A stretch of 64,000 bases of DNA from Escherichia coli (lineage in GTDB: Bacteria; Pseudomonadota; Gammaproteobacteria; Enterobacterales; Enterobacteriaceae). Made by a program: the position numbers and the translations under genes. The stretch is taken from assembly GCF_029227855.1 (NCBI RefSeq), contig NZ_CP074356.1. One strand, given 5' to 3'. Below, in pieces: positions 3,930 to 19,763 of this stretch (the first letter of the stretch is position 1; every line of letters starts with the position of its first letter). Under the pieces are notes generated by a model. It was given only the letters and a program-made list of their open reading frames with translations. It searched no databases and had not been told where the DNA came from.

Positions 3930-3943
3930 TACATGTTGTAGCA

Positions 3944-3980
3944 ACCCCGCACTGATTATGAAGAATAATCAGTGCGGGGA
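3944..3980 (+). terminator. Stem-loop downstream of gss (probable intrinsic terminator)
   Basis: Near-perfect inverted repeat ccccgcactgattat / ataatcagtgcgggg immediately after the gss stop, followed by A/T-rich sequence. Confidence 0.5.
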
Positions 3981-4220
3981 TTAATCAAAATATTCAATAT
4001 TTATATATTCAAATATTTATTCATTTCATGTGTGAATGTATTAACCAGTGGAATGCCTGTGTTTTGATTATTTCTAAAGGTTTTGAATGAATGCTTATTA
4101 TCTGATACACAAGAAATAACACTCTTTTTATCGTTAAAAAATGATATTTCACTTTGCCCACGCCGTTAAAGTCACTGATAATGCGTCCGTTCGTAAATTC
4201 AAAATGGCGTAATCTAATAT

Positions 4221-5720: not shown

Positions 5721-5768
5721 CCTTCCTGAAAATGCCCGGTCCTGGCGATCGGGCATTTCCATTTTTGA

Positions 5769-6461
5769 CTAGTGATAACCACGCGCGGTCATAAAATCCG
5801 TAATCGCTTTTTCCGCATCAACCAGCACTTGTTCCAGCGGTTGATTGGCATCGATATCAACCAGTTGCGCGCCTCCAAAGGTTAACTGTGGCATTATGGC
5901 TATCTTCCTTTCCAGCGATTCTCTTTTGTGGTCAGGCTTACGCGCGCAGGCCACGTCCAGATCGACATTGAGTTTGATGACCAGATCGGGCTTATGGCTC
6001 GCCATCCAGTGAAACGCTTTACGTTCCTGGCTTGCCAGCCATGAGACAAAACGACCACCTTCAACGTTAGGTGGGAACACCGTACCATCGTAAGCACCAG
6101 GAATTTGGTCCTGAGGATAACGGTCGGTTAGAACAATTAACCCGCGACGACGACAGGCAAGCATATGACGAAAGCGCAGTAAGCGACGGGCGACAAACGC
6201 TGTAATTACCAGCGCCGGAACAGGGCCAGGCAATTTTTTTGCTGTTTTCACCTGATTTCGTTCAATTGTTTTATGTAAGGATTTTCCCATCAACGGTAAT
6301 TTTGTCACTGCACGACCGACATTTCCGGCCTGTTTTCCTAAATGAACTCTTTCGGCAGCACCATATTTTTCGACAACGGTAATGAGATGTTCACACACCG
6401 TTGACTTGCCTGAACCATCGCTACCAATAACGGCAATTAATGGAGGTGTTATTGACTGCAT
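5769..6461 (-). CDS. yghT: YghT, P-loop NTPase of unknown function (230 aa)
   Basis: Walker [14 protein letters not shown] near N-terminus; DRYPQ and ARKPDH motifs shared with YghS and YghR (paralogs). Confidence 0.85.
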
Positions 6462-6634
6462 GAATATATCCTTTAATTTAAATATCCATTAAAAATATTT
6501 ATTTGGTTAATGTGTTTTTATGAAAGCGTAATTCAGGTCAATGTCACAATTAACCATTGTCACAATAAGGTTGAACGGATATTCTGAGCACGGACCACGT
6601 AATATTCAATACATTATTTGCTGCCGGGTTTTTC
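6462..6634. promoter_or_regulatory. Divergent intergenic region yghT <-> yghS (probable promoters)
   Basis: AT-rich 170-bp spacer between divergently oriented starts; no sites mapped by eye. Confidence 0.3.
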
Positions 6635-7348
6635 GTGAATCAACGTAATATGTCAATAATTAATTCCACGCCAGTGCGTGTTATTGCCATTGTAGGATAT
6701 GATGGTTCAGGTAAATCGACCCTCACGGCAAGCCTGGTAAATGAACTGGCAGCAACAATGCCAACAGAACACATTTATCTCGGGCAATCGTCCGGGCGAA
6801 TTGGCGAATGGATTTCACAGCTCCCTGTTATTGGCGCACCTTTTGGGCGTTATTTGCGAAGTAAAGCGGCACATGTGCACGAAAAGCCCTTAACACCGCC
6901 TGGCAATATTACTGCGCTGGTTATCTATCTGCTTTCCTGCTGGCGGGCGTACAAGTTTCGCAAAATGTTGTGTAAAAGCCAGCAAGGCTATCTGCTCATC
7001 ACCGACCGCTACCCGCAGGTTGAAGTGCCGGGTTTTCGCTTTGATGGCCCGCAATTGGCAAAAACCACGGGCGGTAACGGTTGGATAAAAATGTTAAGGC
7101 AGCGCGAGCTGAAGCTGTACCAATGGATGGCGTCTTATTTGCCCGTATTGTTGATTCGTCTTGGCATTGATGAACAAACGGCGTTTGCGCGTAAACCTGA
7201 CCACCAACTGGCGGCGTTACAGGAAAAAATCGCCGTTACGCCGCAACTGACATTCAATGGCGCAAAGATCCTTGAACTGGATGGTCGGCAACCAGCCGAT
7301 GAAATTATGCAAGCGTCACTACGTGCAATTCACGCCGCGCTTCCCTGA
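6635..7348 (+). CDS. yghS: YghS, P-loop NTPase of unknown function (237 aa; start may be GTG 6635 or ATG 6650)
   Basis: Walker A IAIVGYDGSGKSTL; DRYPQ and ARKPDH motifs; paralog of YghR/YghT. Confidence 0.85.
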   Translation: MNQRNMSIINSTPVRVIAIVGYDGSGKSTLTASLVNELAATMPTEHIYLGQSSGRIGEWISQLPVIGAPFGRYLRSKAAHVHEKPLTPPGNITALVIYLLSCWRAYKFRKMLCKSQQGYLLITDRYPQVEVPGFRFDGPQLAKTTGGNGWIKMLRQRELKLYQWMASYLPVLLIRLGIDEQTAFARKPDHQLAALQEKIAVTPQLTFNGAKILELDGRQPADEIMQASLRAIHAALP

Positions 7349-7379
7349 TCACCAAAATGGATAGGGGATGATTTAACGA

Positions 7380-8138
7380 ATGGATGCACTACAAACACAA
7401 ACTGTTAATAGTACAACCGCGCCGCAGCCCAACTACATTCCGGGGCTGATTGCGGTGGTCGGGTGTGATGGCACCGGTAAATCCACACTGACCACCGACC
7501 TGGTGAAATCGCTGCAACAACACTGGCAAACCGAGCGGCGCTATCTGGGGCTGCTCTCCGGCGAAGACGGCGACAAAATCAAACGATTGCCGTTGGTTGG
7601 CGTCTGGCTCGAACGGCGACTGGCGGCCAAATCCTCGAAAACCCAAAGCATGAAAACCAAATCTCCAGCGCTATGGGCGGCGGTGATTATGTACTGCTTC
7701 TCGCTGCGAAGAATGGCGAATCTACGCAAGGTTCAGCGACTGGCGCAAAGTGGCGTTCTGGTGGTCAGCGATCGCTTCCCGCAGGCTGAAATTTCGGGCT
7801 TTTATTATGACGGACCGGGGATCGGCGTCGAACGTGCGACCGGGAAAATCAGCATGTTTCTGGCGCAGCGCGAACGGCGTTTATACCAACAAATGGCGCA
7901 ATACCGTCCTGAATTAATCATTCGTTTGGGGATTGATATTGATACTGCCATCTCCCGCAAGCCTGACCATGACTATGCCGAGCTGCAGGACAAAATCGGC
8001 GTCATGTCGACGATTGGCTATAACGGCTCAAAAATTCTTGAGATTGATTCCAGAGCGCCCTACAGCGAAGTGCTGGAACAGGCACAGAAGGCGGTTTCTC
8101 TGGTTGCCATCGTTTCTGACCGCCGAAGTTTAACTTAA
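7380..8138 (+). CDS. yghR: YghR, P-loop NTPase of unknown function (252 aa)
   Basis: Walker A IAVVGCDGTGKSTL; DRFPQ and SRKPDH motifs; paralog of YghS/YghT. Confidence 0.85.
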   Translation: MDALQTQTVNSTTAPQPNYIPGLIAVVGCDGTGKSTLTTDLVKSLQQHWQTERRYLGLLSGEDGDKIKRLPLVGVWLERRLAAKSSKTQSMKTKSPALWAAVIMYCFSLRRMANLRKVQRLAQSGVLVVSDRFPQAEISGFYYDGPGIGVERATGKISMFLAQRERRLYQQMAQYRPELIIRLGIDIDTAISRKPDHDYAELQDKIGVMSTIGYNGSKILEIDSRAPYSEVLEQAQKAVSLVAIVSDRRSLT

Positions 8139-8183
8139 GGCTGGCGGGATACTTTTTACTATCAACGATAAGGTCAGGCTGAA

Positions 8184-9533
8184 TTGGCGGGTTTTAACAT
8201 CAAACATTGGTTTGCAGATGGCGCGTTTCGCACCATTATTCGCAATAGCGCCTGGTTAGGCTCCAGTAATGTCGTGAGCGCTTTGCTGGGTCTGTTGGCG
8301 CTCTCGTGTGCCGGTAAAGGGATGACGCCCGCCATGTTTGGCGTACTGGTGATTGTGCAATCGTACGCCAAGTCGATCAGCGATTTTATTAAGTTTCAGA
8401 CATGGCAGTTGGTGGTGCAGTACGGAACGCCAGCCTTGACCAACAATAATCCGCAGCAATTTCGCAATGTCGTCTCATTTTCCTTCTCGTTGGATATCGT
8501 CAGCGGCGCGGTGGCGATTGTCGGCGGCATTGCCTTACTCCCTTTTCTTTCCCATTCATTAGGTCTGGATGACCAAAGCTTTTGGCTGGCAGCGCTGTAT
8601 TGCACGCTCATTCCTTCAATGGCTTCCTCCACGCCGACCGGCATTCTGCGTGCGGTAGATCGCTTCGACTTAATTGCTGTACAGCAGGCGACGAAACCTT
8701 TTCTGCGCGCAGCGGGGAGCGTCGTTGCCTGGTATTTTGACTTTGGTTTTGCGGGTTTTGTTATTGCCTGGTACGCCTCGAATCTTGTTGGCGGCACCAT
8801 GTACTGGTGGTTTGCCGCACGTGAATTACGCCGCAGAAATATCCATAACGCGTTCAAATTGAATCTGTTTGAGTCTGCCCGACACATCAAAGGCGCGTGG
8901 AGTTTTGTCTGGTCAACCAACATTGCCCATTCCATCTGGTCGGCGCGTAATTCGTGCAGCACAGTGTTGGTGGGGATCGTGTTAGGACCCGCTGCCGCCG
9001 GGTTATTTAAAATCGCCATGACATTCTTCGACGCCGCCGGAACGCCAGCGGGTTTACTGGGTAAAAGTTTTTACCCAGAGGTGATGCGTTTAGATCCGCG
9101 CACCACCAGACCGTGGTTGTTAGGCGTGAAGTCCGGTTTACTGGCGGGCGGAATCGGTATTCTGGTGGCGCTCGCGGTGTTGATCGTCGGCAAGCCGCTC
9201 ATTTCGCTGGTGTTTGGCGTTAAGTATCTCGAAGCGTATGACCTGATTCAGGTGATGCTGGGCGCAATTGTGATCTCGATGCTGGGCTTCCCTCAGGAGT
9301 CATTGCTATTGATGGCGGGAAAACAGCGCGCTTTTCTCGTGGCGCAAACCATCGCCTCAATCGGCTACATCGTATTGCTGTTCATGTTCTGTCATCTGTT
9401 TGGCGTGCTGGGGGCTGCATTTGCTTACTTCGGTGGGCAATGTCTGGATGTGGTGTTCTCGCTAATTCCGACCTTAAAGGCATTTTTTCAGCGCCATTCC
9501 TTGCTTTATAACTCAGCCGGAGAGAAATCCTGA
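8184..9533 (+). CDS. yghQ: YghQ, polytopic inner-membrane protein, MOP/Wzx-like putative flippase (449 aa as called from TTG start; first in-frame ATG is codon 47)
   Basis: Many hydrophobic segments throughout; N-terminus resembles polysaccharide-transporter family; stop overlaps downstream ATG (ATGA). Confidence 0.8.
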   Translation: MAGFNIKHWFADGAFRTIIRNSAWLGSSNVVSALLGLLALSCAGKGMTPAMFGVLVIVQSYAKSISDFIKFQTWQLVVQYGTPALTNNNPQQFRNVVSFSFSLDIVSGAVAIVGGIALLPFLSHSLGLDDQSFWLAALYCTLIPSMASSTPTGILRAVDRFDLIAVQQATKPFLRAAGSVVAWYFDFGFAGFVIAWYASNLVGGTMYWWFAARELRRRNIHNAFKLNLFESARHIKGAWSFVWSTNIAHSIWSARNSCSTVLVGIVLGPAAAGLFKIAMTFFDAAGTPAGLLGKSFYPEVMRLDPRTTRPWLLGVKSGLLAGGIGILVALAVLIVGKPLISLVFGVKYLEAYDLIQVMLGAIVISMLGFPQESLLLMAGKQRAFLVAQTIASIGYIVLLFMFCHLFGVLGAAFAYFGGQCLDVVFSLIPTLKAFFQRHSLLYNSAGEKS

Positions 9534-10357
9534 TGATGAGAAAATATTTCCCGCTTGAGGCGAGCGAGCGTCTATTTGTTGCGATTGAAGAAGATGATGT
9601 TGTTGATGCACAGGTCAGTTTGCCGCCGACTATCGCACTAAGTTGTACCACCGAAATCATCCATGATAATTACGCGTTATGCCTGCAATTCTGGCTCAAT
9701 GGCGTCAATCGCCAGGAGTTACTGCGTTTAATATGCAAACAGGCCAAAGGCGATGAGCTGACTGCTGATGAGCGCAAACAATTTAAATACATGCGAGCGC
9801 GCTACAAGCACCTGCGTTTTGCGCAACGGCTGTATTTAAAAAAGCATCAGGCCGGATTTTTATTCGGCAAAACGACCGTTTTTTTGGGGCGTTTTCAGGA
9901 CGGCTTTCGTAACGGTAAGAAAAATATTGTGTCGTATTACGGCAACCTGTTACGGGTTTATTTAAGCTCTCCGGTCTGGTCGTTGGTGAACTATTCATTA
10001 CGCCATAGCCAGTTAGAAAGCGTAAGCGGTTTTATTGCCTATCGGCAAAAGCAAATGCATACCCTGAAAGAGATAATTGCCAAATCGCGACTAACTGGCA
10101 GGGAATTTCATGATGTGCGAAAAATCATCAGCCAGCAGGTTTCTTATTACGACACCCTAAGATCGCTTGATCCTGAAAATAAAGAGGCGTTACAGATTTC
10201 CCGCTTCCTCGCCGCCATTAATGGCCTGATGGGGGATAAACACGACGACATGGTGGCGGATGATATGGAAAACCGCCAGTCGTATGATGCACCGATGGCG
10301 CTGGATAGCGATATTCGTCAGCGCTTAGAACTGCTGATTTCGCGTTTTCCGCTATAA
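9533..10357 (+). CDS. Hypothetical soluble protein (274 aa), translationally coupled to yghQ
   Basis: ATG overlaps yghQ stop; no transmembrane segments or signal peptide evident; basic/aromatic-rich helical-looking sequence; no domain recognised by eye. Confidence 0.6.
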   Translation: MMRKYFPLEASERLFVAIEEDDVVDAQVSLPPTIALSCTTEIIHDNYALCLQFWLNGVNRQELLRLICKQAKGDELTADERKQFKYMRARYKHLRFAQRLYLKKHQAGFLFGKTTVFLGRFQDGFRNGKKNIVSYYGNLLRVYLSSPVWSLVNYSLRHSQLESVSGFIAYRQKQMHTLKEIIAKSRLTGREFHDVRKIISQQVSYYDTLRSLDPENKEALQISRFLAAINGLMGDKHDDMVADDMENRQSYDAPMALDSDIRQRLELLISRFPL

Positions 10358-10365
10358 CCGGAGCA

Positions 10366-10929
10366 ATGATGTCATCTCGTTTGATTATTGCGCTGGTTAT
10401 CATGCTCTTAGCCCCGGGTGTGCAGGCGCACAATTTCGTCACTGGTAAAACGGTTACCCCTGTTTATATCCAGGAAGGCGGCGAGCTGCTTCTGAATAGC
10501 GAAGACGAAATTCACTACCAAAAGTGGAACAGCACACAGCTGGCGGGAAAAGTCCGCATTATTCAGTATATCGCCGGGCGTAAGTCGGCGAAGAAAAAGA
10601 ACTCACTGTTAATTAAAGCGGTTGAAGCGGCAAACTTTCCGCAGGATCGTTTTCAGCCCACCACCATTGTGAACACTGATGATGCCATCTTTGGTACCGG
10701 CTATTTTGTCGTTGGCAAAATCGAAAAAAATAAACGCCGCTATCCATGGGCGCAATTCGTTATTGACGGCAATGGACAGGGACGCGTTGCCTGGCACTTG
10801 CAGGAGCAGAGTTCAACCATTCTGGTGCTGAATAAAACCGGGCAAATTCAGTGGGCAAAGGACGGCAGCCTGACGCCGGAAGAGGTAGAACATGTCATTG
10901 CGCTGGCGCAGAAACTGATCAATGAATAA
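10366..10929 (+). CDS. Hypothetical exported (periplasmic) protein, 187 aa
   Basis: N-terminal signal peptide MMSSRLIIALVIMLLAPGVQA followed by hydrophilic mature domain; starts 8 nt after the previous stop. Confidence 0.6.
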   Translation: MMSSRLIIALVIMLLAPGVQAHNFVTGKTVTPVYIQEGGELLLNSEDEIHYQKWNSTQLAGKVRIIQYIAGRKSAKKKNSLLIKAVEAANFPQDRFQPTTIVNTDDAIFGTGYFVVGKIEKNKRRYPWAQFVIDGNGQGRVAWHLQEQSSTILVLNKTGQIQWAKDGSLTPEEVEHVIALAQKLINE

Positions 10930-10959
10930 AAAATTCAAAGGATTGAGGGCGTTAGTGAG

Positions 10960-12030
10960 ATGAAGCTGGTTGAACACTACATCATGCGTGGTACGCGCCG
11001 TCTGGTGCTGATTATCGTCGGTTTTCTGATCTTTATTTTCGCCAGCTACTCCGCACAGCGTTATCTGACCGAAGCGGCAAATGGGACATTAGCTCTTGAT
11101 GTTGTGCTGGATATTGTTTTCTACAAGGTGCTGATTGCACTGGAGATGTTGTTACCTGTTGGACTGTATGTGTCAGTTGGCGTGACGCTAGGGCAGATGT
11201 ATACCGACTCGGAAATTACCGCTATTTCTGCGGCGGGGGGCAGTCCGGGACGCTTGTACAAAGCCGTTCTTTATCTGGCGATACCGCTAAGTATTTTTGT
11301 CACCCTTCTGTCGATGTATGGTCGTCCGTGGGCTTATGCGCAGATTTATCAACTGGAGCAACAGTCACAGTCGGAGCTGGATGTTCGCCAGTTGCGGGCA
11401 AAGAAATTTAACACTAACGATAACGGACGAATGATCCTTTCGCAGACGGTTGATCAGGATAATAATCGCCTGACTGACGCGCTGATTTATACTTCTACTG
11501 CCAATCGAACCCGCATTTTCCGCGCCCGTTCGGTTGATGTGGTTGACCCATCACCTGAGAAACCGACCGTTATGTTGCATAACGGGACCGCCTATCTTCT
11601 CGATCATCAGGGGCGTGACGACAACGAACAGATCTACCGTAATCTGCAATTACATCTGAATCCGCTGGATCAAAGCCCTAACGTCAAACGCAAAGCAAAA
11701 TCGGTCACGGAGCTGGCGCGCTCCGCCTTTCCTGCCGATCATGCCGAACTGCAATGGCGACAAAGCCGTGGCCTGACAGCGTTGTTGATGGCGCTGCTGG
11801 CCATTTCATTAAGTCGGGTAAAACCGCGGCAAGGGCGATTTTCAACGTTATTGCCACTGACGTTGCTGTTTGTTGCCATTTTTTATGGCGGCGACGTCTG
11901 CCGTACGCTGGTGGCTAACGGCGCGATTCCCCTCATTCCTGGTTTGTGGTTAGTACCCGGACTCATGCTAATGGGCCTGCTGATGCTGGTCGCACGCGAC
12001 TTCTCTTTGCTGCAGAAATTTTCCCGATGA
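10960..12030 (+). CDS. LptF-like permease (YjgP/YjgQ family), 356 aa
   Basis: N-terminus MKLVEHYIMRGTRRLVLIIVGFLIFIF typical of LptF/LptG; hydrophobic N- and C-terminal segments flanking a large hydrophilic loop; ~360 aa; RBS upstream. Confidence 0.75.
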   Translation: MKLVEHYIMRGTRRLVLIIVGFLIFIFASYSAQRYLTEAANGTLALDVVLDIVFYKVLIALEMLLPVGLYVSVGVTLGQMYTDSEITAISAAGGSPGRLYKAVLYLAIPLSIFVTLLSMYGRPWAYAQIYQLEQQSQSELDVRQLRAKKFNTNDNGRMILSQTVDQDNNRLTDALIYTSTANRTRIFRARSVDVVDPSPEKPTVMLHNGTAYLLDHQGRDDNEQIYRNLQLHLNPLDQSPNVKRKAKSVTELARSAFPADHAELQWRQSRGLTALLMALLAISLSRVKPRQGRFSTLLPLTLLFVAIFYGGDVCRTLVANGAIPLIPGLWLVPGLMLMGLLMLVARDFSLLQKFSR

Positions 12031-13106
12031 ATGTTTTCAGTCGCTATTTAATCCGTCATCTCTTTCTCGGTTTTGCCGCCGCCGCAGGGCTATTGCTGCC
12101 GCTTTTTACTACCTTCAACCTGATTAACGAACTGGATGATGTCAGCCCGGGCGGTTATCGCTGGACTCAGGCGGTGCTGGTGGTGCTGATGACCTTACCG
12201 CGTACACTGGTCGAACTTTCGCCGTTTATCGCCTTATTGGGAGGGATTGTTGGCCTGGGGCAGTTATCGAAAAACAGTGAGCTTACCGCCATTCGCAGCA
12301 CTGGGTTTTCTATCTTCCGTATTGCACTGGTGGCGCTGGTTGCCGGGATATTGTGGACTGTTTCGTTAGGCGCGATAGATGAGTGGGTGGCGTCGCCATT
12401 GCAGCAACAGGCGCTGCAAATCAAATCGACTGCCACCGCGTTGGGGGAGGACGATGACATTACCGGCAATATGCTTTGGGCCAGGCGCGGTAATGAATTT
12501 GTGACGGTGAAATCGCTGAACGAGCAGGGCCAGCCTGTGGGCGTGGAGATATTTCATTATCGCGACGATCTCTCGCTCGAATCCTACATTTTTGCACGCA
12601 GTGCCTCCATTGAAGACGACAAAACATGGATCCTGCATGGTGTGAATCATAAAAAATGGTTGAATGGCAAAGAAACGCTGGAAACATCAGATAATCTTGC
12701 CTGGCAATCGGCCTTCACCAGTATGAATCTTGAAGAGTTATCGATGCCGGGAAATACTTTTTCTGTCCGTCAACTTAATCATTACATCCATTATTTGCAG
12801 GAAACTGGGCAACCCAGCAGCGAATACCGCCTTGCACTGTGGGAAAAACTGGGACAACCCATCCTGACCCTGGCGATGATTTTGCTGGCTGTGCCGTTTA
12901 CCTTTAGTGCCCCGCGTTCGCCAGGGATGGGTAGCCGTCTCGCTGTAGGCGTCATCGTTGGCTTACTCACCTGGATCAGCTATCAAATCATGGTCAATCT
13001 GGGGTTGCTATTTGCGTTGAGCGCACCTGTTACCGCGCTCGGTTTACCGGTAGCGTTTGTGCTGGTGGCGTTGAGCCTGGTGTATTGGTATGACAGACAA
13101 CATTAA
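12027..13106 (+). CDS. LptG-like permease (YjgP/YjgQ family), 359 aa
   Basis: Track ORF trimmed to ATG overlapping upstream stop (ATGA); MNVFSRYLIRHLFLGFAAAAGLLLPLF typical LptF/G N-terminus; same topology pattern as partner. Confidence 0.75.
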   Translation: MNVFSRYLIRHLFLGFAAAAGLLLPLFTTFNLINELDDVSPGGYRWTQAVLVVLMTLPRTLVELSPFIALLGGIVGLGQLSKNSELTAIRSTGFSIFRIALVALVAGILWTVSLGAIDEWVASPLQQQALQIKSTATALGEDDDITGNMLWARRGNEFVTVKSLNEQGQPVGVEIFHYRDDLSLESYIFARSASIEDDKTWILHGVNHKKWLNGKETLETSDNLAWQSAFTSMNLEELSMPGNTFSVRQLNHYIHYLQETGQPSSEYRLALWEKLGQPILTLAMILLAVPFTFSAPRSPGMGSRLAVGVIVGLLTWISYQIMVNLGLLFALSAPVTALGLPVAFVLVALSLVYWYDRQH

Positions 13107-13107
13107 A

Positions 13108-13136
13108 CCCGCCGTGGCGCAGCGCCACAGCGGGCT
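13108..13136. terminator. Palindromic stem-loop between convergent operons (probable bidirectional terminator)
   Basis: cccgccgtggcgc a gcgccacagcggg inverted repeat in the 34-bp gap between the LptG-like stop and the alpha-oxoamine synthase stop. Confidence 0.45.
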
Positions 13137-13140
13137 CACA

Positions 13141-14313
13141 TTACTGCTTCAGAGTAGCGAACGCTTGAATGATGGCATCAATTTGCTCACGACTGTGGGC
13201 AGCGTTTACGCTACAGCGCAGCAGCGTGATGCCTGCAGGCGCGGCAGGTGGCAGGATAAGATTCACATAAACGCCCAGCGAAATAAGCTCGCGCCAGATG
13301 CGTAAACCGTCCTCTTTCGAACCGATTATTACTGGCACTACCGGGCTAATATGTGAACTTAACTCGTAACCCAGTTTTTGCAGACCGTCATACAGATGGT
13401 TGGCGTTATCCATCAGCTTTTGCCGCAGCTCTGGTTGTGAGGCAATGGTTCTTAACGACGAGCGCACGGTCGCAATGCAGGACGGAGAAGGAGAGGCGGT
13501 AAAAATATACGGGCGGCTGCCGTAGCGCAGCACTTCCATCGCTTCCGAACCGACAGCAAAACCGCCAATCGAGGCCAGACTTTTACTGAAAGTACCAACG
13601 ATAATATCCACATCATCTTCAACGCCAACGGCTTCAGCCAGTCCGCGCCCCGTTGCGCCTAACACGCCAAACGAATGCGCTTCATCGACAATCAAATAAC
13701 CACCGAGACGACGTTTGATATCAACAATTTCCGCCAGCGGCGCAACGTCACCGAGCATACTGTAGATGCCTTCAACGATGATAATCGCCTCTTTTGCCCG
13801 TTCACCGAGGCGAACCATGCGCCGTTCCAGATCTTTAGCATCGTTATGGCGGAAACGAATAATTTCCGCGCCACCGAGAGAACAGGCGTCATAAATACTG
13901 GCGTGGCTGTCGGCATCCAGTAACACCACGGCGTTATGGTCGGCAAGTGCGCTGATGACGCCTAAATTAGCGGTATAACCGGTTGAAAAAACGATAGCGG
14001 TAGGGCGATTAAAAAACTCGGCGATCTCTTTCTCTAACGCCAGATGCGGCGCATAACTGCCGTTTGCCATACGAGAACCGGTGGTGCCGGTGCCTTGGGC
14101 CGCTAACGCTGCCTGACCTTCGGCGATGGCATCATGATTAAAGGTTAAACCGAGATAATTATTGGTCCCGGCCAGAATCACTTTTTTATTGCCGATCCGA
14201 CCTTCGGTGGCGGAATACACTTCATCAATACAGGTGCCAAACGGTGTTAACCCGTTGTCACTAAATTGCAGTCGCTCGCCAGCAAGGCGCGCATATTTAT
14301 CGTATAGCCCCAT
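13141..14313 (-). CDS. PLP-dependent alpha-oxoamine synthase, serine palmitoyltransferase-like (390 aa)
   Basis: Class-II aminotransferase fold signature with Schiff-base lysine in GTFSKSLASIGGF (the TFSKS variant is typical of SPT rather than BioF/KBL); Gly-rich loop TGTTGSRMANGS; start overlaps ACP stop (TAATG). Confidence 0.85.
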   Translation of the reverse strand: MGLYDKYARLAGERLQFSDNGLTPFGTCIDEVYSATEGRIGNKKVILAGTNNYLGLTFNHDAIAEGQAALAAQGTGTTGSRMANGSYAPHLALEKEIAEFFNRPTAIVFSTGYTANLGVISALADHNAVVLLDADSHASIYDACSLGGAEIIRFRHNDAKDLERRMVRLGERAKEAIIIVEGIYSMLGDVAPLAEIVDIKRRLGGYLIVDEAHSFGVLGATGRGLAEAVGVEDDVDIIVGTFSKSLASIGGFAVGSEAMEVLRYGSRPYIFTASPSPSCIATVRSSLRTIASQPELRQKLMDNANHLYDGLQKLGYELSSHISPVVPVIIGSKEDGLRIWRELISLGVYVNLILPPAAPAGITLLRCSVNAAHSREQIDAIIQAFATLKQ

Positions 14314-14561
14314 TATTTATTCTCCAGCCATGGAAGTAGTGTTTCCATTAATTGCGCAGGGGTTTTGACATCCAGCAGAATATTAATAGGAATGGAAATA
14401 TCGAATCTGTCTTCCAGCATCATTAAGAGATCCATCACTTTGATCGACTCCAGGCCAAGATCGTTGACGAGATCGCTGTCGGGCTTAATTTCCACACCGT
14501 TTTCGACCAAATCCTGTAAACAGGAAAGGATGTAATCCATTACTATTTCACGATTTACCAT
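14313..14561 (-). CDS. Acyl carrier protein (82 aa)
   Basis: Small acidic protein with phosphopantetheine-attachment motif DLGLESIKVMDL; located between reductase and alpha-oxoamine synthase. Confidence 0.8.
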   Translation of the reverse strand: MVNREIVMDYILSCLQDLVENGVEIKPDSDLVNDLGLESIKVMDLLMMLEDRFDISIPINILLDVKTPAQLMETLLPWLENK

Positions 14562-14592
14562 AGAAACGTTAACACACCTTTAAACAAGACAA

Positions 14593-15507
14593 TCAAAATA
14601 GCCCGTTGCGTAATGCGTGTTCCAGGCTAATCCCGGGAAACCAATTAATATCTTCAGAAATACGGTTATTACTTGCCGACCAGTCGGCGTGGGTTAATTC
14701 ACGAATTTTCGAGCGGGTCAGCATAGGTTCTTTACCTGCCAGGCGACTCAACGCGGTACTGATATCCGCAAGGCAGGTGAGTACCGGCAGAGGAATACCA
14801 ACCATTCGCACGGAACCACAACGGGCGTCGGCGGCAAGCTGTCGTACGTGTTGCCAGTCATAGCCGCCGGGGACGCCATCGCATAATTCATAGGTTTGCG
14901 TCTGTACAGTTTCGGCGCTTAACCACTGCCCCACGGCTTGCGCAAAATCGGTGATGTGCAGGAAAGAGAGTTGTGTATCTGGCGCACCAAGTCGTGGCAG
15001 CAGGCCGCGCAGCATCCAGTCAAACAGCGGTTTTAACTCTTTATCGCCGGGACCATACACGGCTGTCGGGCGAAAAACGCCCAGCGTAATTTCATCAGCC
15101 ATTGCAGTCAGCCGTTGTTCGGCGACGTGTTTGGAATTTGCGTACCAGGAGAGTTCGGGATGGCGCGCCGCCAGCGAAGAGATAAACAGAAAACGTTGGC
15201 AAAAGCCGCTCTCTTTTGCCGCTTGCATCAGTCGCAGGCTGCCGTCAACGTTACAGCGGGTAAAAATCTCTTCTTTGTGCCCGCGCACTTGCCCGGCGCA
15301 ATGGACCACCGCGCTGGCTCCGGCAACCAGTTCGCTAAGTGAATGAGTATCTTCCAGAGAACCGCGCACCCAGGTGAGATTATCATTGACGTGAGCGCGG
15401 GCAGTACGCGTCAATGCGCGAACGTGAAAGCCGCGGGCGAGCAGGTTATCGATAATATATTTACCGATAAACCCGGTAGCGCCCGTCACCGCGACAGTTT
15501 GATTCAT
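14593..15507 (-). CDS. NAD(P)-dependent epimerase/dehydratase-family (extended SDR) reductase, 304 aa
   Basis: N-terminal Rossmann motif VTGATGFIG; catalytic YANSK (YxxxK); start overlaps upstream stop (ATGA). Confidence 0.8.
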   Translation of the reverse strand: MNQTVAVTGATGFIGKYIIDNLLARGFHVRALTRTARAHVNDNLTWVRGSLEDTHSLSELVAGASAVVHCAGQVRGHKEEIFTRCNVDGSLRLMQAAKESGFCQRFLFISSLAARHPELSWYANSKHVAEQRLTAMADEITLGVFRPTAVYGPGDKELKPLFDWMLRGLLPRLGAPDTQLSFLHITDFAQAVGQWLSAETVQTQTYELCDGVPGGYDWQHVRQLAADARCGSVRMVGIPLPVLTCLADISTALSRLAGKEPMLTRSKIRELTHADWSASNNRISEDINWFPGISLEHALRNGLF

Positions 15508-17228
15508 GCCAGGGATTCCTGCACATGAAGGCTTGCAGCATAAGCCTTCTGATAACGTTTTTTCGCTTCCGCACGGGCAGGCTTGCCGGAGGACGTTCGG
15601 GGAATACTGTGGGGCGGCAACAGATCGATAGCCGCGGTCACGCCAAATTCGCTTTGGATCCGTGCTGCCAGCGCGTGGATAAGCTGCCCGCGACGTTCTT
15701 CATCGCTGATCCGACACTGGATCTGCAAAATGATTTTTTCCTGGGCGGTAACAAAAGCAATCGCATCGCCAGAATGAATTTCCGGTTCCTGTTCCGCAAT
15801 ATATTCAATATCCTGCGGCCAGATATTACGGCCACGAATAATAATCAGATCTTTAATGCGTCCGGTGACATACAGATAACCGTCCAGCAGATAACCGAGG
15901 TCGCCGGTGTCTAACCAGCCCGTCGCGGCAATCTCGTCTTGTGAAATCTGGTCGCCAAAGTAACCGCTCATCAGGCTAGGGCCGGAGATGCAAATATGGC
16001 CTACCACACGTTCCGCGACAGGTATACCTGCTTCATTGCGGATTTCAATGCCATGTTCCGGCAACGCTTTACCGCAGTTGACGAAAGTCGATACGGCGCG
16101 TGTTTCAGCATCCGGCGCGACGGCTTTGCCCTGATATTCGAGGATGTCGCGATCCACTTCGTTAACCACAACCCCGGAAGCTTCATCAGAGAAGCTGACA
16201 GCCAGCGCATTTTCTGCCAGTCCGTAGCACGGCATGAAAGTTTTATCGTCAAAGTTGACCTGACGGAAACATTCAGCGAATTGATGGAGTTGTTCTGCGG
16301 AGATGGGTTCTGCACCAATACCAGCGACGCGCCAGCAGGAAAGATCCAGTTCAGCGAGATCTTTTTCATTCACGCGGCGCTGGCACAATTCATAGCCAAA
16401 CGGCGGCGCAACGGAAACGGTGCCGCGATTTTTACTGATCAATTTAAGCCATTGCAGAGGACGCATGGCAAAATCCTGAGTGCGCAAATAATCTACTGAA
16501 AGCTGCGTGGCGACGGGGGTCAGGAGAAAGCCGACCAGTCCCATATCATGGTAGAAAGGCAGCCAGGAGACGCAGCGGTCGCCAGGGCGTAATTTAATGC
16601 CATCGTGGCTTATAGCACGTAGATTAGCCATCACTTCGCGATGGGTGATAATGACGCCACGGGGAAAACGGGTGCTGCCGGAGGTGTACTGGAGGTAGGC
16701 GATATCGTTCGGAACTGGATGCTGGAGTGCAACATCGGCTTCCGGTAATGCCTTAAACCAGGCGTGGCTTAAAACATGTAATTCGGGGTTGTTGTTATGC
16801 GTCGCGGCATTGACCAGCGGTAACCACTCATCACCAGTGATAATGGCTGCGGGCTGGCAACTTGTCAGTAAACCCTGCAGTTTGGCGCTCCAGGAATCCC
16901 GCTGACCGACGCCCATTGGAATCGCCAACGGGACGGCGACTAAGCCGGCATACTGGCAGGAAAAAAAAGCCTCTACGAACCCGCTACTGGTTTCGGCAAT
17001 CAGCGCCACGCGATCGCCTTTTTTCAGGTTCAGCGATAACAACCGCTTCGCACCAGCTTCGGCACGCGCTTTTAACGTCTGATATTCCAGTTGATCTTCA
17101 AGTTGGCAACGTCTGTCATAAAAATTCATTCCGGCGCTACTCAGAGCGGCGTAGTCCAAAGCATCAACCAGCGTTGGAAAATCGGCATAGCGCATAGGTA
17201 GGGAATGCGTAAAGATTTTATTAGACAT
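15504..17228 (-). CDS. Fatty acyl-AMP ligase / acyl-ACP synthetase-like adenylating enzyme (~574 aa; track ORF extends to TTG at 17255)
   Basis: AMP-binding core YTSGSTRFPRGV; WLPFYHDMGLVG motif and overall length resemble FAAL-type enzymes; first gene of the minus-strand operon. Start chosen at first ATG (MSNKIFTHSL). Confidence 0.8.
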   Translation of the reverse strand: MSNKIFTHSLPMRYADFPTLVDALDYAALSSAGMNFYDRRCQLEDQLEYQTLKARAEAGAKRLLSLNLKKGDRVALIAETSSGFVEAFFSCQYAGLVAVPLAIPMGVGQRDSWSAKLQGLLTSCQPAAIITGDEWLPLVNAATHNNNPELHVLSHAWFKALPEADVALQHPVPNDIAYLQYTSGSTRFPRGVIITHREVMANLRAISHDGIKLRPGDRCVSWLPFYHDMGLVGFLLTPVATQLSVDYLRTQDFAMRPLQWLKLISKNRGTVSVAPPFGYELCQRRVNEKDLAELDLSCWRVAGIGAEPISAEQLHQFAECFRQVNFDDKTFMPCYGLAENALAVSFSDEASGVVVNEVDRDILEYQGKAVAPDAETRAVSTFVNCGKALPEHGIEIRNEAGIPVAERVVGHICISGPSLMSGYFGDQISQDEIAATGWLDTGDLGYLLDGYLYVTGRIKDLIIIRGRNIWPQDIEYIAEQEPEIHSGDAIAFVTAQEKIILQIQCRISDEERRGQLIHALAARIQSEFGVTAAIDLLPPHSIPRTSSGKPARAEAKKRYQKAYAASLHVQESLA

Positions 17229-17599
17229 ATACACCACGAAAAAATTGGATATCAAAAATAAAATGACAATAATGCGGTGGATTATATAGGCATAAAAGAT
17301 AAATGAGATAATATTTTCATCAGTGTGAAAATGAACATTGATTTAAATAATGAGTTTGAGTTTTTTTGTTTTTATTGTGAATGATATTTAATTTATGAAT
17401 GTATTAAGAAGAAGCCTTGTCCGGTCGCCTTAAATCGACAAAAGGCATTGTGGCGCTTCTGTGTAGTCTCTGACCTTATCGTAATCATTAATAAATACTA
17501 TTTATTCGTCGTTTGTATTCATTGGGTTGATTATTAAGGTGCCGTTCGTTGCTGTTGCAACCTGTTTTTCACCGTTAATTATTTGTTACCCACAGAACT
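17229..17599. promoter_or_regulatory. AT-rich divergent control region between lipid operon (-) and yghO (+)
   Basis: ~370 bp strongly AT-rich non-coding DNA with A/T tracts; no ORF with coding character; expected site of promoters for both flanking units. Confidence 0.35.
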
Positions 17600-18742
17600 A
17601 TGGAATGCGATCTGCTGATGATTAAAATTGAAAAAGTAATTAATAAAAATGACCTTAAGGCATTTATCGCTTTTCCGTCATCACTTTATCCCGACGATCC
17701 AAACTGGATACCCCCTTTATTCATTGAACGCAACGAGCATTTGTCTGCGAAAAATCCGGGGACGGACCATATCATCTGGCAGGCGTGGGTGGCAAAAAAA
17801 GCGGGGCAGATAGTTGGGCGTATTACCGCGCAAATAGATACCTTGCACCGCGAGCGTTACGGTGAAGATACCGGTCATTTCGGCATGATTGACGCCATTG
17901 ATGATCCGCAGGTTTTTGCCGCGTTGTTTGGCGCAGCGGAAGCGTGGTTGAAGTCACAAGGTGCAAGTAAGATCAGCGGTCCTTTCAGCCTGAATATCAA
18001 TCAGGAAAGCGGATTACTGATTGAAGGTTTCGATACACCACCCTGTGCGATGATGCCGCACGGTAAACCGTGGTATGCCGCGCATATTGAACAATTGGGT
18101 TATCACAAAGGCATTGATTTACTAGCGTGGTGGATGCAGCGAACCGATCTCACTTTCTCTCCGGCGCTAAAAAAACTGATGGATCAGGTGCGTAAGAAGG
18201 TGACCATTCGCTGCATCAATCGCCAGCGGTTTGCCGAAGAGATGCAGATCCTGCGTGAGATTTTCAACTCTGGCTGGCAGCACAACTGGGGATTTGTGCC
18301 GTTTACCGAACATGAATTCGCGACTATGGGCGATCAACTTAAATATCTGGTGCCGGACGATATGATCTACATCGCTGAGATTGATTCTGCACCCTGCGCG
18401 TTTATTGTTGGCTTGCCAAACATCAACGAGGCGATTGCCGATCTGAACGGATCGCTCTTTCCCTTCGGCTGGGCAAAATTGCTGTGGCGTTTAAAAGTCA
18501 GCGGTGTGCGAACTGCGCGAGTACCGCTGATGGGCGTGCGGGACGAGTATCAGTTTAGCCGCATCGGCCCGGTGATTGCGCTGTTATTGATTGAAGCCTT
18601 ACGCGATCCGTTTGCCCGCCGGAAGATCGATGCGCTGGAGATGTCATGGATCCTCGAAACCAATACAGGCATGAATAACATGCTGGAACGCATTGGGGCG
18701 GAGCCGTACAAGCGTTACCGATTGTATGAAAAGCAGATTTGA
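17600..18742 (+). CDS. yghO: YghO-family protein, intact (380 aa); possible acyl-CoA N-acyltransferase-like fold
   Basis: Uninterrupted ORF, soluble; position matches yghO next to glcC. Fold assignment is tentative. Confidence 0.7.
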   Translation: MECDLLMIKIEKVINKNDLKAFIAFPSSLYPDDPNWIPPLFIERNEHLSAKNPGTDHIIWQAWVAKKAGQIVGRITAQIDTLHRERYGEDTGHFGMIDAIDDPQVFAALFGAAEAWLKSQGASKISGPFSLNINQESGLLIEGFDTPPCAMMPHGKPWYAAHIEQLGYHKGIDLLAWWMQRTDLTFSPALKKLMDQVRKKVTIRCINRQRFAEEMQILREIFNSGWQHNWGFVPFTEHEFATMGDQLKYLVPDDMIYIAEIDSAPCAFIVGLPNINEAIADLNGSLFPFGWAKLLWRLKVSGVRTARVPLMGVRDEYQFSRIGPVIALLLIEALRDPFARRKIDALEMSWILETNTGMNNMLERIGAEPYKRYRLYEKQI

Positions 18743-18748
18743 TGGCAG

Positions 18749-19513: not shown

Positions 19514-19763
19514 TCCCGGACCTCGTGCACAGGTAGGACCAATTTTTCTGTTCTTAACTCGCAAAACACGCACATCACGTAAGTGATTATGTTACATCAA
19601 TTTAACATTAAGTTAACCAAGACAAGGTCACAGAGCTGGAAAAAAAATGGTCTGACCGGTAGCTAAAGAGATAGACGAAAACGAAAAGCCCGCTTAATAA
19701 CTGTTCACAGAAGCAGCGCGCAAAAATCAGCTGCCACACAACACAACAAAGCGAAGCCTACTC
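19514..19763. promoter_or_regulatory. glcC-glcD divergent promoter/operator region
   Basis: 250-bp intergenic region between divergent glcC and glcD starts; known architecture of glc locus; individual sites not mapped. Confidence 0.5.

What the first reader, a model, noticed from the sequence alone, without database searches (positions are those of the whole stretch)
5769..18742. Candidate undescribed lipid biosynthesis and export system at the yghT-yghO locus
Between yghQ and yghO lies a ~7.7 kb block that I believe is absent from K-12, where I recall an IS5 copy at this junction and yghO annotated as a pseudogene. The block has chromosome-like base composition, so it looks ancestral and lost from K-12 rather than newly acquired. 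Two convergent operons share one terminator hairpin. One encodes an FAAL-like adenylating enzyme, SDR reductase, ACP and an SPT-like alpha-oxoamine synthase; the other encodes YghS/YghR kinases, YghQ flippase-like protein, two unknown proteins and an LptF/LptG-like pair. Together with intact YghO this matches the logic of bacterial sphingoid-base or ceramide synthesis plus flipping and extraction from the inner membrane. I am not aware of a functional description in E. coli.
Basis: partly seen in the sequence, partly recalled or inferred. Interest (0 to 1): 0.92.

Follow-up and report, generated by a model that had tools for sequence, protein, structure and literature searches.

The report
E. 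coli sphingolipid synthesis-and-export locus
This is the real, intact ceramide (sphingolipid) synthesis and export gene cluster that most natural E. coli carry and K-12 lost to an IS5 deletion; its core is already published, but the lipid it makes in E. coli and the role of its three kinases are still unknown.

Summary
Window 5769-18742 carries 13 intact genes between pitB and glcC. K-12-type genomes replace window 9253-17639 (8.4 kb) with IS5. The full locus is in 4051 of 5426 complete E. coli genomes; the K-12 junction is in 347.

The oxoamine synthase passes NCBI's serine palmitoyltransferase model and fails BioF and Kbl. The adenylase is a fatty acyl-AMP ligase. The LptF/LptG paralogues pass their models.

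The locus is not undescribed. Padilla-Gómez et al. 2022 characterised the BL21(DE3) Spt, AcpR and AasR biochemically and assigned the reductase and YghO (44% identical to Caulobacter bCerS). A 2026 preprint shows Caulobacter LptF2/LptG2 working with LptB and draws the E. coli UTI89 locus. PGAP already names the gene spt.

New here:
- All 13 genes move as one module across Enterobacterales.
- The three YghT/S/R kinases, YghQ and the 274-aa protein sit within 10 kb of spt in 14 of 45 non-enterobacterial loci, mostly beta- and gammaproteobacteria.
- The 274-aa protein has a CHAD fold.
- The kinases have a thymidylate-kinase fold but are not dTMP kinases.
- All 13 genes are under purifying selection.

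The native E. coli lipid remains unknown.

The parts
5769..6461 (-). yghT: P-loop kinase, paralogue 1 of 3. PGAP calls it 'dTMP kinase', which the scores do not support.
   Evidence: ORF. dTMP-kinase model 25 bits against a cutoff of 83. 33-36% identical to YghS and YghR, with invariant Walker A, DR(Y/F)PQ and RKPDH motifs.
6635..7348 (+). yghS: P-loop kinase, paralogue 2; first gene of the + strand operon.
   Evidence: A promoter-like site lies at 6557-6585 (consensus match only).
7380..8138 (+). yghR: P-loop kinase, paralogue 3.
8184..9533 (+). yghQ (full length, 449 aa): MOP/Wzx-type flippase-like membrane protein. Truncated by IS5 in K-12.
   Evidence: Pfam Polysacc_synt E 2.7e-8. MOP flippase model 33 bits, below its cutoff of 273. 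At least 6 strongly hydrophobic segments. K-12 truncation.
9533..10357 (+). 274-aa protein with a CHAD-like all-helical fold (annotated hypothetical).
10366..10929 (+). YtfJ-family periplasmic protein (paralogue of ytfJ) with an N-terminal signal-like hydrophobic segment.
   Evidence: TIGR01626 215 bits against a cutoff of 151. Hydrophobic residues 1-19. Found only in the Enterobacterales versions of the module.
10960..12030 (+). lptF paralogue (LptF2).
   Evidence: TIGR04407 320 bits against a cutoff of 230. 94-114 bits to solved LptF chains, aligned across nearly the full length of both proteins, with the coupling-helix Glu retained.
12027..13106 (+). lptG paralogue (LptG2); its start overlaps the lptF2 stop.
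   Evidence: TIGR04408 305 bits against a cutoff of 240. 141-148 bits to solved LptG chains, with the coupling-helix Glu retained.
13104..13138 (.). 16-bp-stem hairpin filling the gap between the two convergent operons; a presumed bidirectional terminator.
   Evidence: No clean T-tract, so the function is inferred.
13141..14313 (-). spt: serine palmitoyltransferase.
   Evidence: NF047599 599 bits against a cutoff of 500; below cutoff on the BioF and Kbl models. Best PDB match is S. paucimobilis SPT, 375 bits, against 202 for KBL. The GTFSKS PLP-lysine motif is present. The BL21 orthologue makes 3-oxo-sphinganine (PMC9386255).
14313..14561 (-). acpR: dedicated acyl carrier protein.
   Evidence: ACP models at E about 1e-8 to 1e-9. 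A GLES serine motif is present. The BL21 orthologue carries 4'-phosphopantetheine.
14593..15507 (-). Extended-SDR reductase (epi / CerR orthologue).
   Evidence: Epimerase/SDR hits only. GATGFIG Rossmann motif. 34% identity to Caulobacter CC_1164, as published.
15504..17228 (-). aasR: fatty acyl-AMP ligase acting as an acyl-AcpR synthetase.
   Evidence: NF006624 871 bits against a cutoff of 600. BL21 AasR supports 3-oxo-sphinganine formation in vivo with its own AcpR but not with Caulobacter AcpR, from which acylation of AcpR(Ec) was inferred.
17600..18742 (+). yghO: N-acyltransferase, orthologue of bacterial ceramide synthase (bCerS/Aca). The true start is probably 17618.
   Evidence: No Pfam, NCBIfam or PDB sequence match. 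44% identity and E 1e-107 to CC_1154, as published. Homologues are 374 aa. Linked to spt in beta- and gammaproteobacteria.
9253..17639 (.). Span absent from K-12-type genomes, where a 1194-bp IS5 takes its place.
   Evidence: (alignment of L002 to the window), and (junction found in 347 of 5426 genomes).

Best explanation
The 13 genes are the E. coli version of the proteobacterial sphingolipid module.

Synthesis:
1. AasR activates a free fatty acid and loads it on the dedicated carrier AcpR.
2. Spt condenses acyl-AcpR with L-serine to give 3-oxo-sphinganine. Steps 1-2 were shown with the BL21(DE3) orthologues (Spt in cell extracts, the AasR/AcpR/Spt trio by co-expression in E. coli).
3. YghO (the bCerS orthologue) N-acylates the base and the SDR (the CerR orthologue) reduces the 3-keto group, giving dihydroceramide. 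This step is inferred from orthology to the Caulobacter enzymes, which have been tested.

Head group (inferred). The module contains no glycosyltransferase and no CDP-alcohol transferase. The only candidate head-group enzymes are the three conserved thymidylate-kinase-fold P-loop kinases YghT, YghS and YghR. My inference is that they phosphorylate the ceramide, possibly in successive steps, to give an anionic phospho-sphingolipid. The basic CHAD-fold protein would bind that phosphate-rich head group or regulate the kinases.

Export (inferred):
- YghQ, a MOP/Wzx-type protein, would flip the lipid across the inner membrane.
- LptF2/LptG2 would dock on the housekeeping ATPase LptB, extract the lipid and pass it to the Lpt bridge for the outer membrane. 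LptB binding was shown in Caulobacter.
- The periplasmic YtfJ paralogue has no assigned role. It may assist hand-over.

The locus is ancestral in Escherichia and was deleted in K-12 by an IS5-associated event.
For: Enzyme identities:
- Spt 599 bits (cutoff 500); BioF and Kbl models below cutoff.
- FAAL 871 bits (cutoff 600).
- LptF 320 bits (cutoff 230); LptG 305 bits (cutoff 240).
- Best solved relative of the synthase is Sphingomonas SPT.

Published biochemistry on the same locus in BL21(DE3), PMC9386255:
- holo-AcpR was demonstrated.
- AasR(Ec) supports 3-oxo-sphinganine formation in vivo with AcpR(Ec) but not with AcpR(Cc), from which the authors infer that it acylates AcpR(Ec).
- SPT(Ec) makes 3-oxo-sphinganine and prefers acyl-AcpR.
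- YghO is 44% identical to bCerS and the SDR is 34% identical to CerR.
- A B-strain genome carries the whole query at 97.4% identity (H18).

Transport:
- Caulobacter LptF2/G2 bind each other and LptB.
- They are essential only when the anionic lipid CPG2 is made.
- The E. coli paralogues keep the coupling-helix glutamates.

One module:
- The same 13 genes occur in Serratia and Pantoea in a different internal order and with different flanking genes.
- Of 35 Enterobacterales loci, 33 have spt, 34 have yghQ and 33 have the CHAD-like gene.
- Outside Enterobacterales, 14 of 45 kinase loci have spt within 10 kb, mostly beta- and gammaproteobacteria, often together with yghO, yghQ and the CHAD-like gene.
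- All three kinase orthogroups are present in 60 of 80 loci.

Support for a lipid or anionic substrate:
- Each kinase has a hydrophobic-plus-basic helix and a pI of 9.6-9.8.
- The family is fused to MOP flippases elsewhere.

Selection and distribution:
- dN/dS is 0.03-0.15 for all 13 genes against E. whittamii.
- 4051 of 5426 genomes carry the full locus.
Against: - No sphingolipid has been reported from E. coli in the library searched.
- In PMC9386255, BL21(DE3) with empty vectors, or overexpressing SPT(Ec) alone, gave no 3-oxo-sphinganine-like spot. The chromosomal genes therefore seem not to be expressed enough in LB at 30 C.
- The kinase substrate is untested.
- The characterised Caulobacter ceramide kinase CpgB is of a different fold (LCB5/DAG-kinase type), and no CpgA/B/C homologue is in the module.
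- The kinase family also occurs in Wzx/Wzy polysaccharide clusters. In 31 of 45 non-enterobacterial loci no spt lies within 10 kb.
- The CHAD HMM of Pfam does not detect the 274-aa protein.
- YghQ scores far below the MOP-flippase cutoff.
Confidence: 0.8

Rival explanations
1. The kinase-YghQ-CHAD cassette is a separate glycan or glycolipid modification and flipping unit that merely sits next to the ceramide genes. On this reading it does not act on the sphingolipid.
For: - The kinase family is found fused to MOP flippases and to a GT4 glycosyltransferase.
- The roughly 500-aa fusion proteins sit in Wzx/Wzy polysaccharide clusters.
- A kinase-kinase-flippase cassette occurs with no spt nearby.
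- 31 of 45 non-enterobacterial loci lack spt within 10 kb.
Against: - The cassette stays with spt, acpR, cerR, aasR and yghO through rearrangements in Enterobacterales. It is also found with them in Rhodanobacter, Carnimonas, Sulfuritalea, Methylotenera and Rhodocyclaceae.
- Many of the loci without spt come from Sphingomonadales and Acetobacter. These are sphingolipid-producing groups, and in Sphingomonadaceae the pathway genes are known to be scattered over the genome.
- No glycosyltransferase or sugar-nucleotide gene is present in the E. coli module.
Confidence: 0.15
2. The locus is functionally silent in E. coli. The genes are retained but no lipid is made under any natural condition.
For: - No E. 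coli sphingolipid is reported in the library searched.
- BL21(DE3) controls show no 3-oxo-sphinganine-like product, and overexpressing SPT(Ec) alone does not help.
- The promoter-like consensus sites are no more frequent than chance.
Against: - All 13 ORFs are intact, with dN/dS 0.03-0.15 against E. whittamii.
- 75% of complete genomes keep the full locus.
- The module sits at the same pitB-adjacent position in Hafnia, Citrobacter and Pseudocitrobacter.
- The cloned E. coli genes encode active proteins.
Confidence: 0.1
3. The pathway makes a different amino-lipid: either a free or N-acylated long-chain base built from an amino acid other than serine, or a soluble signal rather than an outer-membrane sphingolipid.
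For: - Bacterial SPT-like enzymes have relaxed substrate specificity. PMC9386255 has a section on this.
- Close structural relatives include cysteate acyltransferase and CAI-1 synthase.
Against: - SPT(Ec) forms 3-oxo-sphinganine from L-serine and palmitoyl-AcpR.
- It passes the SPT equivalog model and no other family model.
- A dedicated LptF/LptG pair points to a membrane lipid bound for the outer membrane.
Confidence: 0.07

Closest known systems
E. coli BL21(DE3) ECD_02850-ECD_02854 (yghO/aca, aasR, epi, acpR, spt); Padilla-Gómez et al. 2022, PMC9386255
   Same: It is the same chromosomal locus. A B-strain genome matches the whole query at 97.4% identity. The five ceramide genes are in the same order. 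Biochemistry has been done for Spt, AcpR and AasR.
   Different: That work covers only the five biosynthetic genes expressed from plasmids. It does not treat yghT/S/R, yghQ, the 274-aa protein, ytfJ2 or lptF2/G2, and it does not report the native lipid.
Caulobacter crescentus sphingolipid locus CC_1152-CC_1168 (CCNA_01210-01226)
   Same: - Spt, AcpR, AasR, CerR and bCerS orthologues, at 53, not read, 42, 34 and 44% identity respectively.
- A Wzx-like candidate flippase, CC_1166.
- An LptF2/LptG2 pair that uses the housekeeping LptB.
   Different: - Caulobacter builds ceramide (di)phosphoglycerate using an LCB5-type ceramide kinase (CpgB), a CDP-alcohol-type transferase, nucleotidyltransferases and LptC2.
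- E. coli has none of these.
- E. coli instead has three thymidylate-kinase-fold kinases, a CHAD-fold protein and a YtfJ paralogue.
LptB2FGC lipopolysaccharide extractor
   Same: LptF2 and LptG2 pass the LptF and LptG equivalog models. They align across nearly the full length of solved LptF/LptG chains and keep the coupling-helix glutamates.
   Different: - They are only distant paralogues of the housekeeping pair (94-148 bits to solved chains).
- No lptB, lptC or lptA is in the module.
- The presumed cargo is a sphingolipid rather than LPS.
Thymidylate kinase / deoxynucleoside kinase P-loop fold
   Different: - The scores are far below the dTMP-kinase cutoffs (25-31 bits against 83).
- A helical hydrophobic-plus-basic insertion is predicted between the P-loop and the DR(Y/F)PQ motif; how it maps onto the TMPK substrate site was not examined.
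- The family is linked or fused to lipid and glycan flippases.
CHAD domains (polyphosphate-binding helical bundles; 6qv5, 6rn5, 3e0s, YgiF)
   Different: - It is not detected by the Pfam CHAD model.
- It has no CYTH partner domain.
- The context is a lipid-synthesis operon rather than polyphosphate granules.
- Ligand binding is untested.

Membership tests
Serine palmitoyltransferase (alpha-oxoamine synthase subfamily) | Scores above the curated SPT equivalog cutoff and above the sister families BioF, Kbl and ALAS | tested here: met
   NF047599 599 bits against a cutoff of 500. BioF 334 (cutoff 426) and Kbl 297 (cutoff 460). PDB: SPT 375 bits, KBL 202, BioF 176.
Serine palmitoyltransferase (alpha-oxoamine synthase subfamily) | PLP-binding lysine in the conserved GTFSKS motif | tested here: met
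   The sequence reads ...IIVGTFSKSLASIGG.... Identifying this as the PLP-lysine motif rests on established knowledge of bacterial SPT.
Serine palmitoyltransferase (alpha-oxoamine synthase subfamily) | Catalyses serine + acyl-thioester -> 3-oxo-sphinganine | not testable with these tools
   Published for the BL21(DE3) orthologue ECD_02854, in cell extracts and by co-expression in E. coli (PMC9386255).
Rhodobacterial AcpR/AasR pair | A small ACP gene immediately upstream of spt, plus a FAAL-type ligase nearby | tested here: met
   acp at 14313-14561 abuts spt. The FAAL model scores 871 bits against a cutoff of 600.
Bacterial ceramide synthase bCerS (Aca, CC_1154) | Full-length homology to the characterised Caulobacter enzyme | not tested
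The published BLAST gives 44% identity, E 1e-107 and 98% coverage. No Pfam, NCBIfam or PDB sequence match exists.
Bacterial ceramide synthase bCerS (Aca, CC_1154) | Conserved genomic linkage to spt | tested here: met
   yghO homologues at 47-82% identity lie beside spt clusters in Enterobacterales, beta- and gammaproteobacteria.
CerR (ceramide reductase, CC_1164) | Extended SDR encoded within the aasR-acp-spt operon | tested here: met
   Epimerase/SDR hits and a GATGFIG motif; the gene lies between aasR and acp. The published identity to CC_1164 is 34%. Activity is untested.
LptF / LptG permeases | Scores above the equivalog cutoffs, with near full-length alignment to solved LptF/LptG | tested here: met
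   320 bits (cutoff 230) and 305 bits (cutoff 240). The alignments cover almost the whole length of solved LptF/LptG chains.
LptF / LptG permeases | Coupling-helix glutamate needed to engage LptB | tested here: met
   ...DSEITAISAAG... in LptF2 and ...NSELTAIRSTG... in LptG2 align to the SEM/SEL of solved chains. The role of this Glu is from established knowledge. LptB binding has been shown only for Caulobacter.
dTMP kinase (the PGAP name for YghT and YghS) | Scores above the TIGR00041 / NF005923 cutoffs | tested here: not met
   25-31 bits against cutoffs of 83 and 193. Only the fold is shared. These should not be called dTMP kinases.
Bacterial ceramide kinase CpgB (LCB5/DAG-kinase type) | LCB5/DAGK catalytic domain with a GGDG motif | tested here: not met
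   YghT/S/R are P-loop proteins with a TMPK fold. CpgB is LCB5-type. If they act on ceramide, they do so as a different enzyme class.
CHAD domain | Detected by the Pfam CHAD HMM | tested here: not met
   No Pfam hit at all apart from one chance match at E 0.48.
CHAD domain | CHAD helical-bundle fold | tested here: met
MOP/Wzx flippase | Polysacc_synt domain and a multi-spanning membrane topology | tested here: inconclusive
   Pfam Polysacc_synt E 2.7e-8 and at least 6 strong hydrophobic segments. The NCBIfam MOP model scores only 33 bits against a cutoff of 273.
YtfJ family (TIGR01626) | Scores above the curated cutoff | tested here: met
   215 bits against a cutoff of 151.

The most novel reading that the evidence does not exclude
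Most natural E. coli and many other Enterobacterales make an as yet unseen anionic sphingolipid. Its head group would be built not by the Caulobacter Cpg enzymes but by a conserved trio of thymidylate-kinase-fold lipid kinases (YghT, YghS, YghR). These would add one or more phosphates in turn, giving ceramide mono- or oligophosphate. A CHAD-fold protein would bind the phosphate-rich head group. The lipid would be flipped by YghQ and sent to the outer membrane by LptB-LptF2G2. K-12 would then have misled the field about the E. coli envelope lipidome.
Probability: 0.2. Interest if true: 0.8.

Novelty: already known. Interest (0 to 1): 0.4.

Why it matters
E. coli is the reference organism for envelope lipid biology, and that reference is K-12, which has lost this locus. 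Three quarters of complete E. coli genomes keep an intact, selectively maintained ceramide pathway with its own Lpt-type exporter. A locus-dependent outer-membrane lipid in clinical and commensal strains could therefore affect barrier function, sensitivity to polymyxin and other cationic peptides, and host recognition. Anionic sphingolipids do this in Caulobacter.

The identification itself is not new. What is worth following is the conserved kinase trio, CHAD-fold protein and flippase cassette, because it points to a head-group chemistry different from any characterised bacterial sphingolipid.

Tried and rejected
- **YghT/S/R as homologues of the Caulobacter ceramide kinase.** Rejected. CpgB is LCB5/DAG-kinase type, whereas these are P-loop proteins with a TMPK fold.
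- **YghT/S/R as true dTMP kinases, as PGAP names them.** Rejected on score.
- **The oxoamine synthase as BioF or Kbl.** Rejected.
- **Sequence searches that gave nothing.**
  - YghO has no Pfam, NCBIfam or PDB relative.
  - The 274-aa protein has none either; only fold comparison worked.
  - The N-terminal 260 aa of the roughly 500-aa kinase fusions has no Pfam match.
- **A direct in-session alignment of YghO to Caulobacter bCerS.** Not possible, because no Caulobacter sequence was fetched. I relied on the published table.
- **Stankeviciute et al. 2022 (Nat Chem Biol).** Not held in the library.
- **Literature searches for an E. coli sphingolipid product, or for any link of these kinases or of CHAD to sphingolipids.** Nothing found.
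- **Promoter consensus scan.** Not above chance, so it is uninformative.
- **dS against Hafnia.** Saturated, so only the E. whittamii comparison was used.

Full report
**1. Observation**

The window is E. coli chromosome. Positions 5769-18742 are 100% identical to strain JNEC-KY178. RefSeq annotates the region there as pitB, yghT, yghS, yghR, a full-length yghQ ('lipopolysaccharide biosynthesis protein'), a hypothetical protein, a YtfJ-family protein, lptF, lptG, spt, an ACP, an epimerase-family SDR, a fatty acyl-AMP ligase, yghO and glcC. The mechanical ORF list agrees.

The + strand operon ends at 13106 and the - strand operon ends at 13141. The 34-bp gap between them is one hairpin with a 16-bp stem (13104-13138). 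It has no clean T-tract, so 'terminator' is an inference.

A K-12-type genome aligns to window 2769-9252 and 17640-21740, with a 1194-bp IS5 between them. The missing block is therefore 8387 bp. It begins inside yghQ and ends 40 nt into yghO. GC of the region is 0.501.

**2. Distribution**

- The whole query is covered at 80% or more in 4051 of 5426 complete E. coli genomes.
- The K-12-type yghQ::IS5 junction is in 347 genomes, led by K-12 laboratory strains such as MG1655, C600 and J53.
- The module sits next to pitB in E. whittamii and another Escherichia lineage, and also in Pseudocitrobacter, Hafnia and Citrobacter.
- Against E. whittamii, all 13 genes have dN/dS of 0.03-0.15 and no stop codons.

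'Ancestral and lost from K-12' is supported.

**3. What the genes are**

- **Spt.** The oxoamine synthase passes NCBI's serine palmitoyltransferase equivalog (599 bits, cutoff 500). It fails BioF (334, cutoff 426) and Kbl (297, cutoff 460). Its best solved relative is Sphingomonas paucimobilis SPT at 375 bits, against 202 for KBL and 176 for BioF. It carries the GTFSKS lysine motif.
- **AasR.** The adenylase passes a fatty acyl-AMP ligase model (871 bits, cutoff 600).
- **AcpR and reductase.** The 82-aa protein is an ACP. The reductase is an extended SDR.
- **LptF2 and LptG2.** The two permeases pass the LptF (320, cutoff 230) and LptG (305, cutoff 240) models. They align almost end to end with solved LptF/LptG chains and keep the coupling-helix glutamates.
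- **YtfJ paralogue.** The 187-aa protein is a YtfJ-family member with a signal-like N-terminus.
- **YghQ.** It has a weak but real Polysacc_synt/MOP signature.
- **YghO.** It has no family in Pfam, NCBIfam or the PDB.

**4. It is already described**

Padilla-Gómez et al. 2022 (PMC9386255) worked on exactly this locus in BL21(DE3), which E. coli B strains share (H18). Their findings:

- ECD_02853 is a holo-ACP (AcpR).
- ECD_02851 is a specialised acyl-AcpR synthetase (AasR). In co-expression experiments it supported 3-oxo-sphinganine formation with its own AcpR but not with the Caulobacter one, from which the authors inferred that it acylates AcpR(Ec).
- ECD_02854 is an SPT that makes 3-oxo-sphinganine and prefers acyl-AcpR.

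They also assign ECD_02852 (epi) and yghO/ECD_02850 (aca) as the reductase and N-acyltransferase. They note that the five dihydroceramide genes are clustered only in Caulobacter and E. coli BL21. Their Table S2 gives identities to the Caulobacter proteins: YghO to bCerS 44% (E 1e-107), Spt 53%, AasR 42%, SDR 34%. That paper traces the presence of spt in E. coli B and ETEC B7A to earlier reviews.

For export, Olea-Ozuna et al. 2024 proposed LptC2/F2/G2 and a Wzx-like CC_1166 as the Caulobacter sphingolipid transport system. The 2026 preprint of Uchendu, Isom and Klein adds three results:

- LptF2 and LptG2 bind each other and the housekeeping LptB.
- They can be deleted only when spt or the ceramide kinase is absent.
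- The figure of sphingolipid loci includes E. coli UTI89.

The claim that the system is undescribed does not stand.

*The 13 genes are one module.*
- In Serratia liquefaciens and a Pantoea-group genome the same set occurs in a different internal arrangement: yghO diverges from aasR-SDR-acp-spt, and spt converges on yghT.
- The flanking genes also differ between these genomes.

*Linkage across species.* A scan of one genome per species with a kinase profile returned 80 loci. I searched them with the 13 E. coli proteins.
- Of 35 Enterobacterales loci, 33 have spt, 34 have yghQ and 33 have the 274-aa gene.
- Of 45 other loci, 14 have spt within 10 kb. These include Rhodanobacter, Luteibacter, Carnimonas, Sulfuritalea, Gallionellaceae, Methylotenera and Rhodocyclaceae, usually together with yghO, a YghQ-like gene and the 274-aa gene.
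- Sphingomonadales loci carry the kinases-yghQ-274-aa cassette on its own. This fits the scattered layout of the sphingolipid genes in Sphingomonadaceae.
- One member of each of the three kinase orthogroups is present in 60 of 80 loci.

*The kinases are not dTMP kinases.*
- All three paralogues keep the Walker A, DR(Y/F)PQ and RKPDH motifs.
- Each has a hydrophobic stretch followed by a basic helix, and a pI of 9.6-9.8.
- The wider family has 186 representatives at E <= 1e-30. It occurs fused to MOP flippases and to a GT4 transferase, and it sits in Wzx/Wzy clusters.

*The 274-aa protein has a CHAD fold.*
- It has many invariant His/Arg/Lys residues.
- Pfam's CHAD model does not see it.

*Accessory genes in other genera.* These are absent from this window.
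- A DgkA-like gene lies beside yghO in 16 loci.
- A highly conserved LpxO-like hydroxylase is present in 18 loci.

I found no paper linking these kinases or CHAD proteins to sphingolipids.

**6. Mechanism, with what is shown and what is inferred**

Shown, on the cloned E. coli genes: AcpR is a holo-ACP, and Spt condenses acyl-AcpR with serine to give 3-oxo-sphinganine. That fatty acid is loaded on AcpR by AasR was inferred from co-expression.

Inferred from orthology to tested Caulobacter enzymes: N-acylation by YghO and reduction by the SDR, giving dihydroceramide.

Inferred from context:
- The module has no glycosyltransferase or CDP-alcohol transferase. The three kinases are therefore the only plausible head-group enzymes, and the product is probably a phosphorylated, anionic ceramide.
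- This fits the Caulobacter result that LptF2/G2 matter only when the anionic lipid is made.
- YghQ would flip the lipid. LptF2/G2 with LptB would extract it.
- The roles of the CHAD-fold protein and of the YtfJ paralogue are guesses.

A DgkA-like gene next to yghO in other genera suggests that the first phosphate may come from a DgkA-type enzyme. E. coli DgkA is known to phosphorylate ceramide (from general knowledge, not tested here). The thymidylate-kinase-fold trio would then extend a phosphate, but this is speculation.

**7. Evidence against, and rivals**

- No E. coli sphingolipid is on record in the library searched.
- In the 2022 paper, BL21(DE3) with empty vectors, or with SPT(Ec) alone, showed no 3-oxo-sphinganine-like spot. 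The chromosomal locus is therefore not expressed enough in LB at 30 C.
- A silent relic is unlikely, given the purifying selection and the conservation across genera.
- The strongest rival for the second operon is that the kinase-flippase cassette serves another glycan or lipid and is only a neighbour. The repeated linkage to spt through rearrangements argues against it.

**8. Verdict**

- The feature is real.
- Its function was read correctly by the first stage.
- The identification is already in the literature and in RefSeq annotation, so it ranks as already known.
- The remaining interest lies in the unknown native lipid of wild E. coli, and in the conserved kinase trio, CHAD-fold protein and flippase cassette. 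That cassette points to an uncharacterised head-group chemistry.

Noticed in passing
window 17600-17639: The yghO start is ambiguous. PGAP uses the ATG at 17600 (380 aa), but homologues in other genera are 374 aa and cover 98% of the query, which points to the ATG at 17618. In K-12-type genomes the homology begins only at 17640, so the annotated K-12 YghO start comes from IS5 sequence (L002 7645 against 7679).
   Followed up: partly
L006:233-595, L007:580-942 and 14 other loci: A 120-aa DgkA-family gene (PF01219) sits directly beside yghO in most non-Escherichia Enterobacterales modules and in Carnimonas. There is none in this 64-kb window. It is a candidate dedicated ceramide kinase.
   Followed up: partly
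L007:15272-16030, L008:1044-1766 and 16 other loci: An LpxO-like Asp/Arg-hydroxylase-family gene accompanies the module in 18 loci. It is unusually conserved (67-79% identity from Pantoea to betaproteobacteria). E. coli lacks it here. It probably hydroxylates an acyl chain.
   Followed up: partly
P0272; H30 and H26: Some E. coli genomes carry other rearrangements of this locus. One protein fuses GspM to the 274-aa protein. One genome matches only 172 bp, next to gspL. Another stops after 4759 bp. This suggests deletions joining the locus to the nearby T2SS-beta cluster.
   Followed up: no
L024 ('Pseudomonas sp.' MAG), L039 ('Martelella alba'): Both carry Enterobacterales-like modules (about 70-79% protein identity to E. 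coli) under names from other orders. L024 also has a different gene order and a more diverged spt operon. The cause could be mis-binning, mislabelling or horizontal transfer.
   Followed up: no
P0125: A YghS/YghR-like 'atp-binding protein' is recorded from the ant Lasius niger. It is most likely bacterial DNA in a eukaryote assembly.
   Followed up: no
P0383: A 2487-aa protein matches the kinase profile in 39 separate stretches; the best-scoring one covers only profile positions 22-56, around the P-loop. This is a giant repeat protein of unknown nature.
   Followed up: no
window 14313-14561: acpR has a much lower GC (0.406) than its operon neighbours (0.52-0.55).
   Followed up: no
window ~24100-64000: The rest of the window holds glcB-glcA, sslE, a complete T2SS-beta (pppA, gspS2, gspC-L, yghD) and a kps-type capsule region with GT29 and GT4 transferases. 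It ends at an IS110 fragment. K-12 also has only remnants of the T2SS cluster (from general knowledge).
   Followed up: no
window 3501-4500: GC drops to 0.425 in the gss-pitB intergenic region and at the start of pitB.
   Followed up: no
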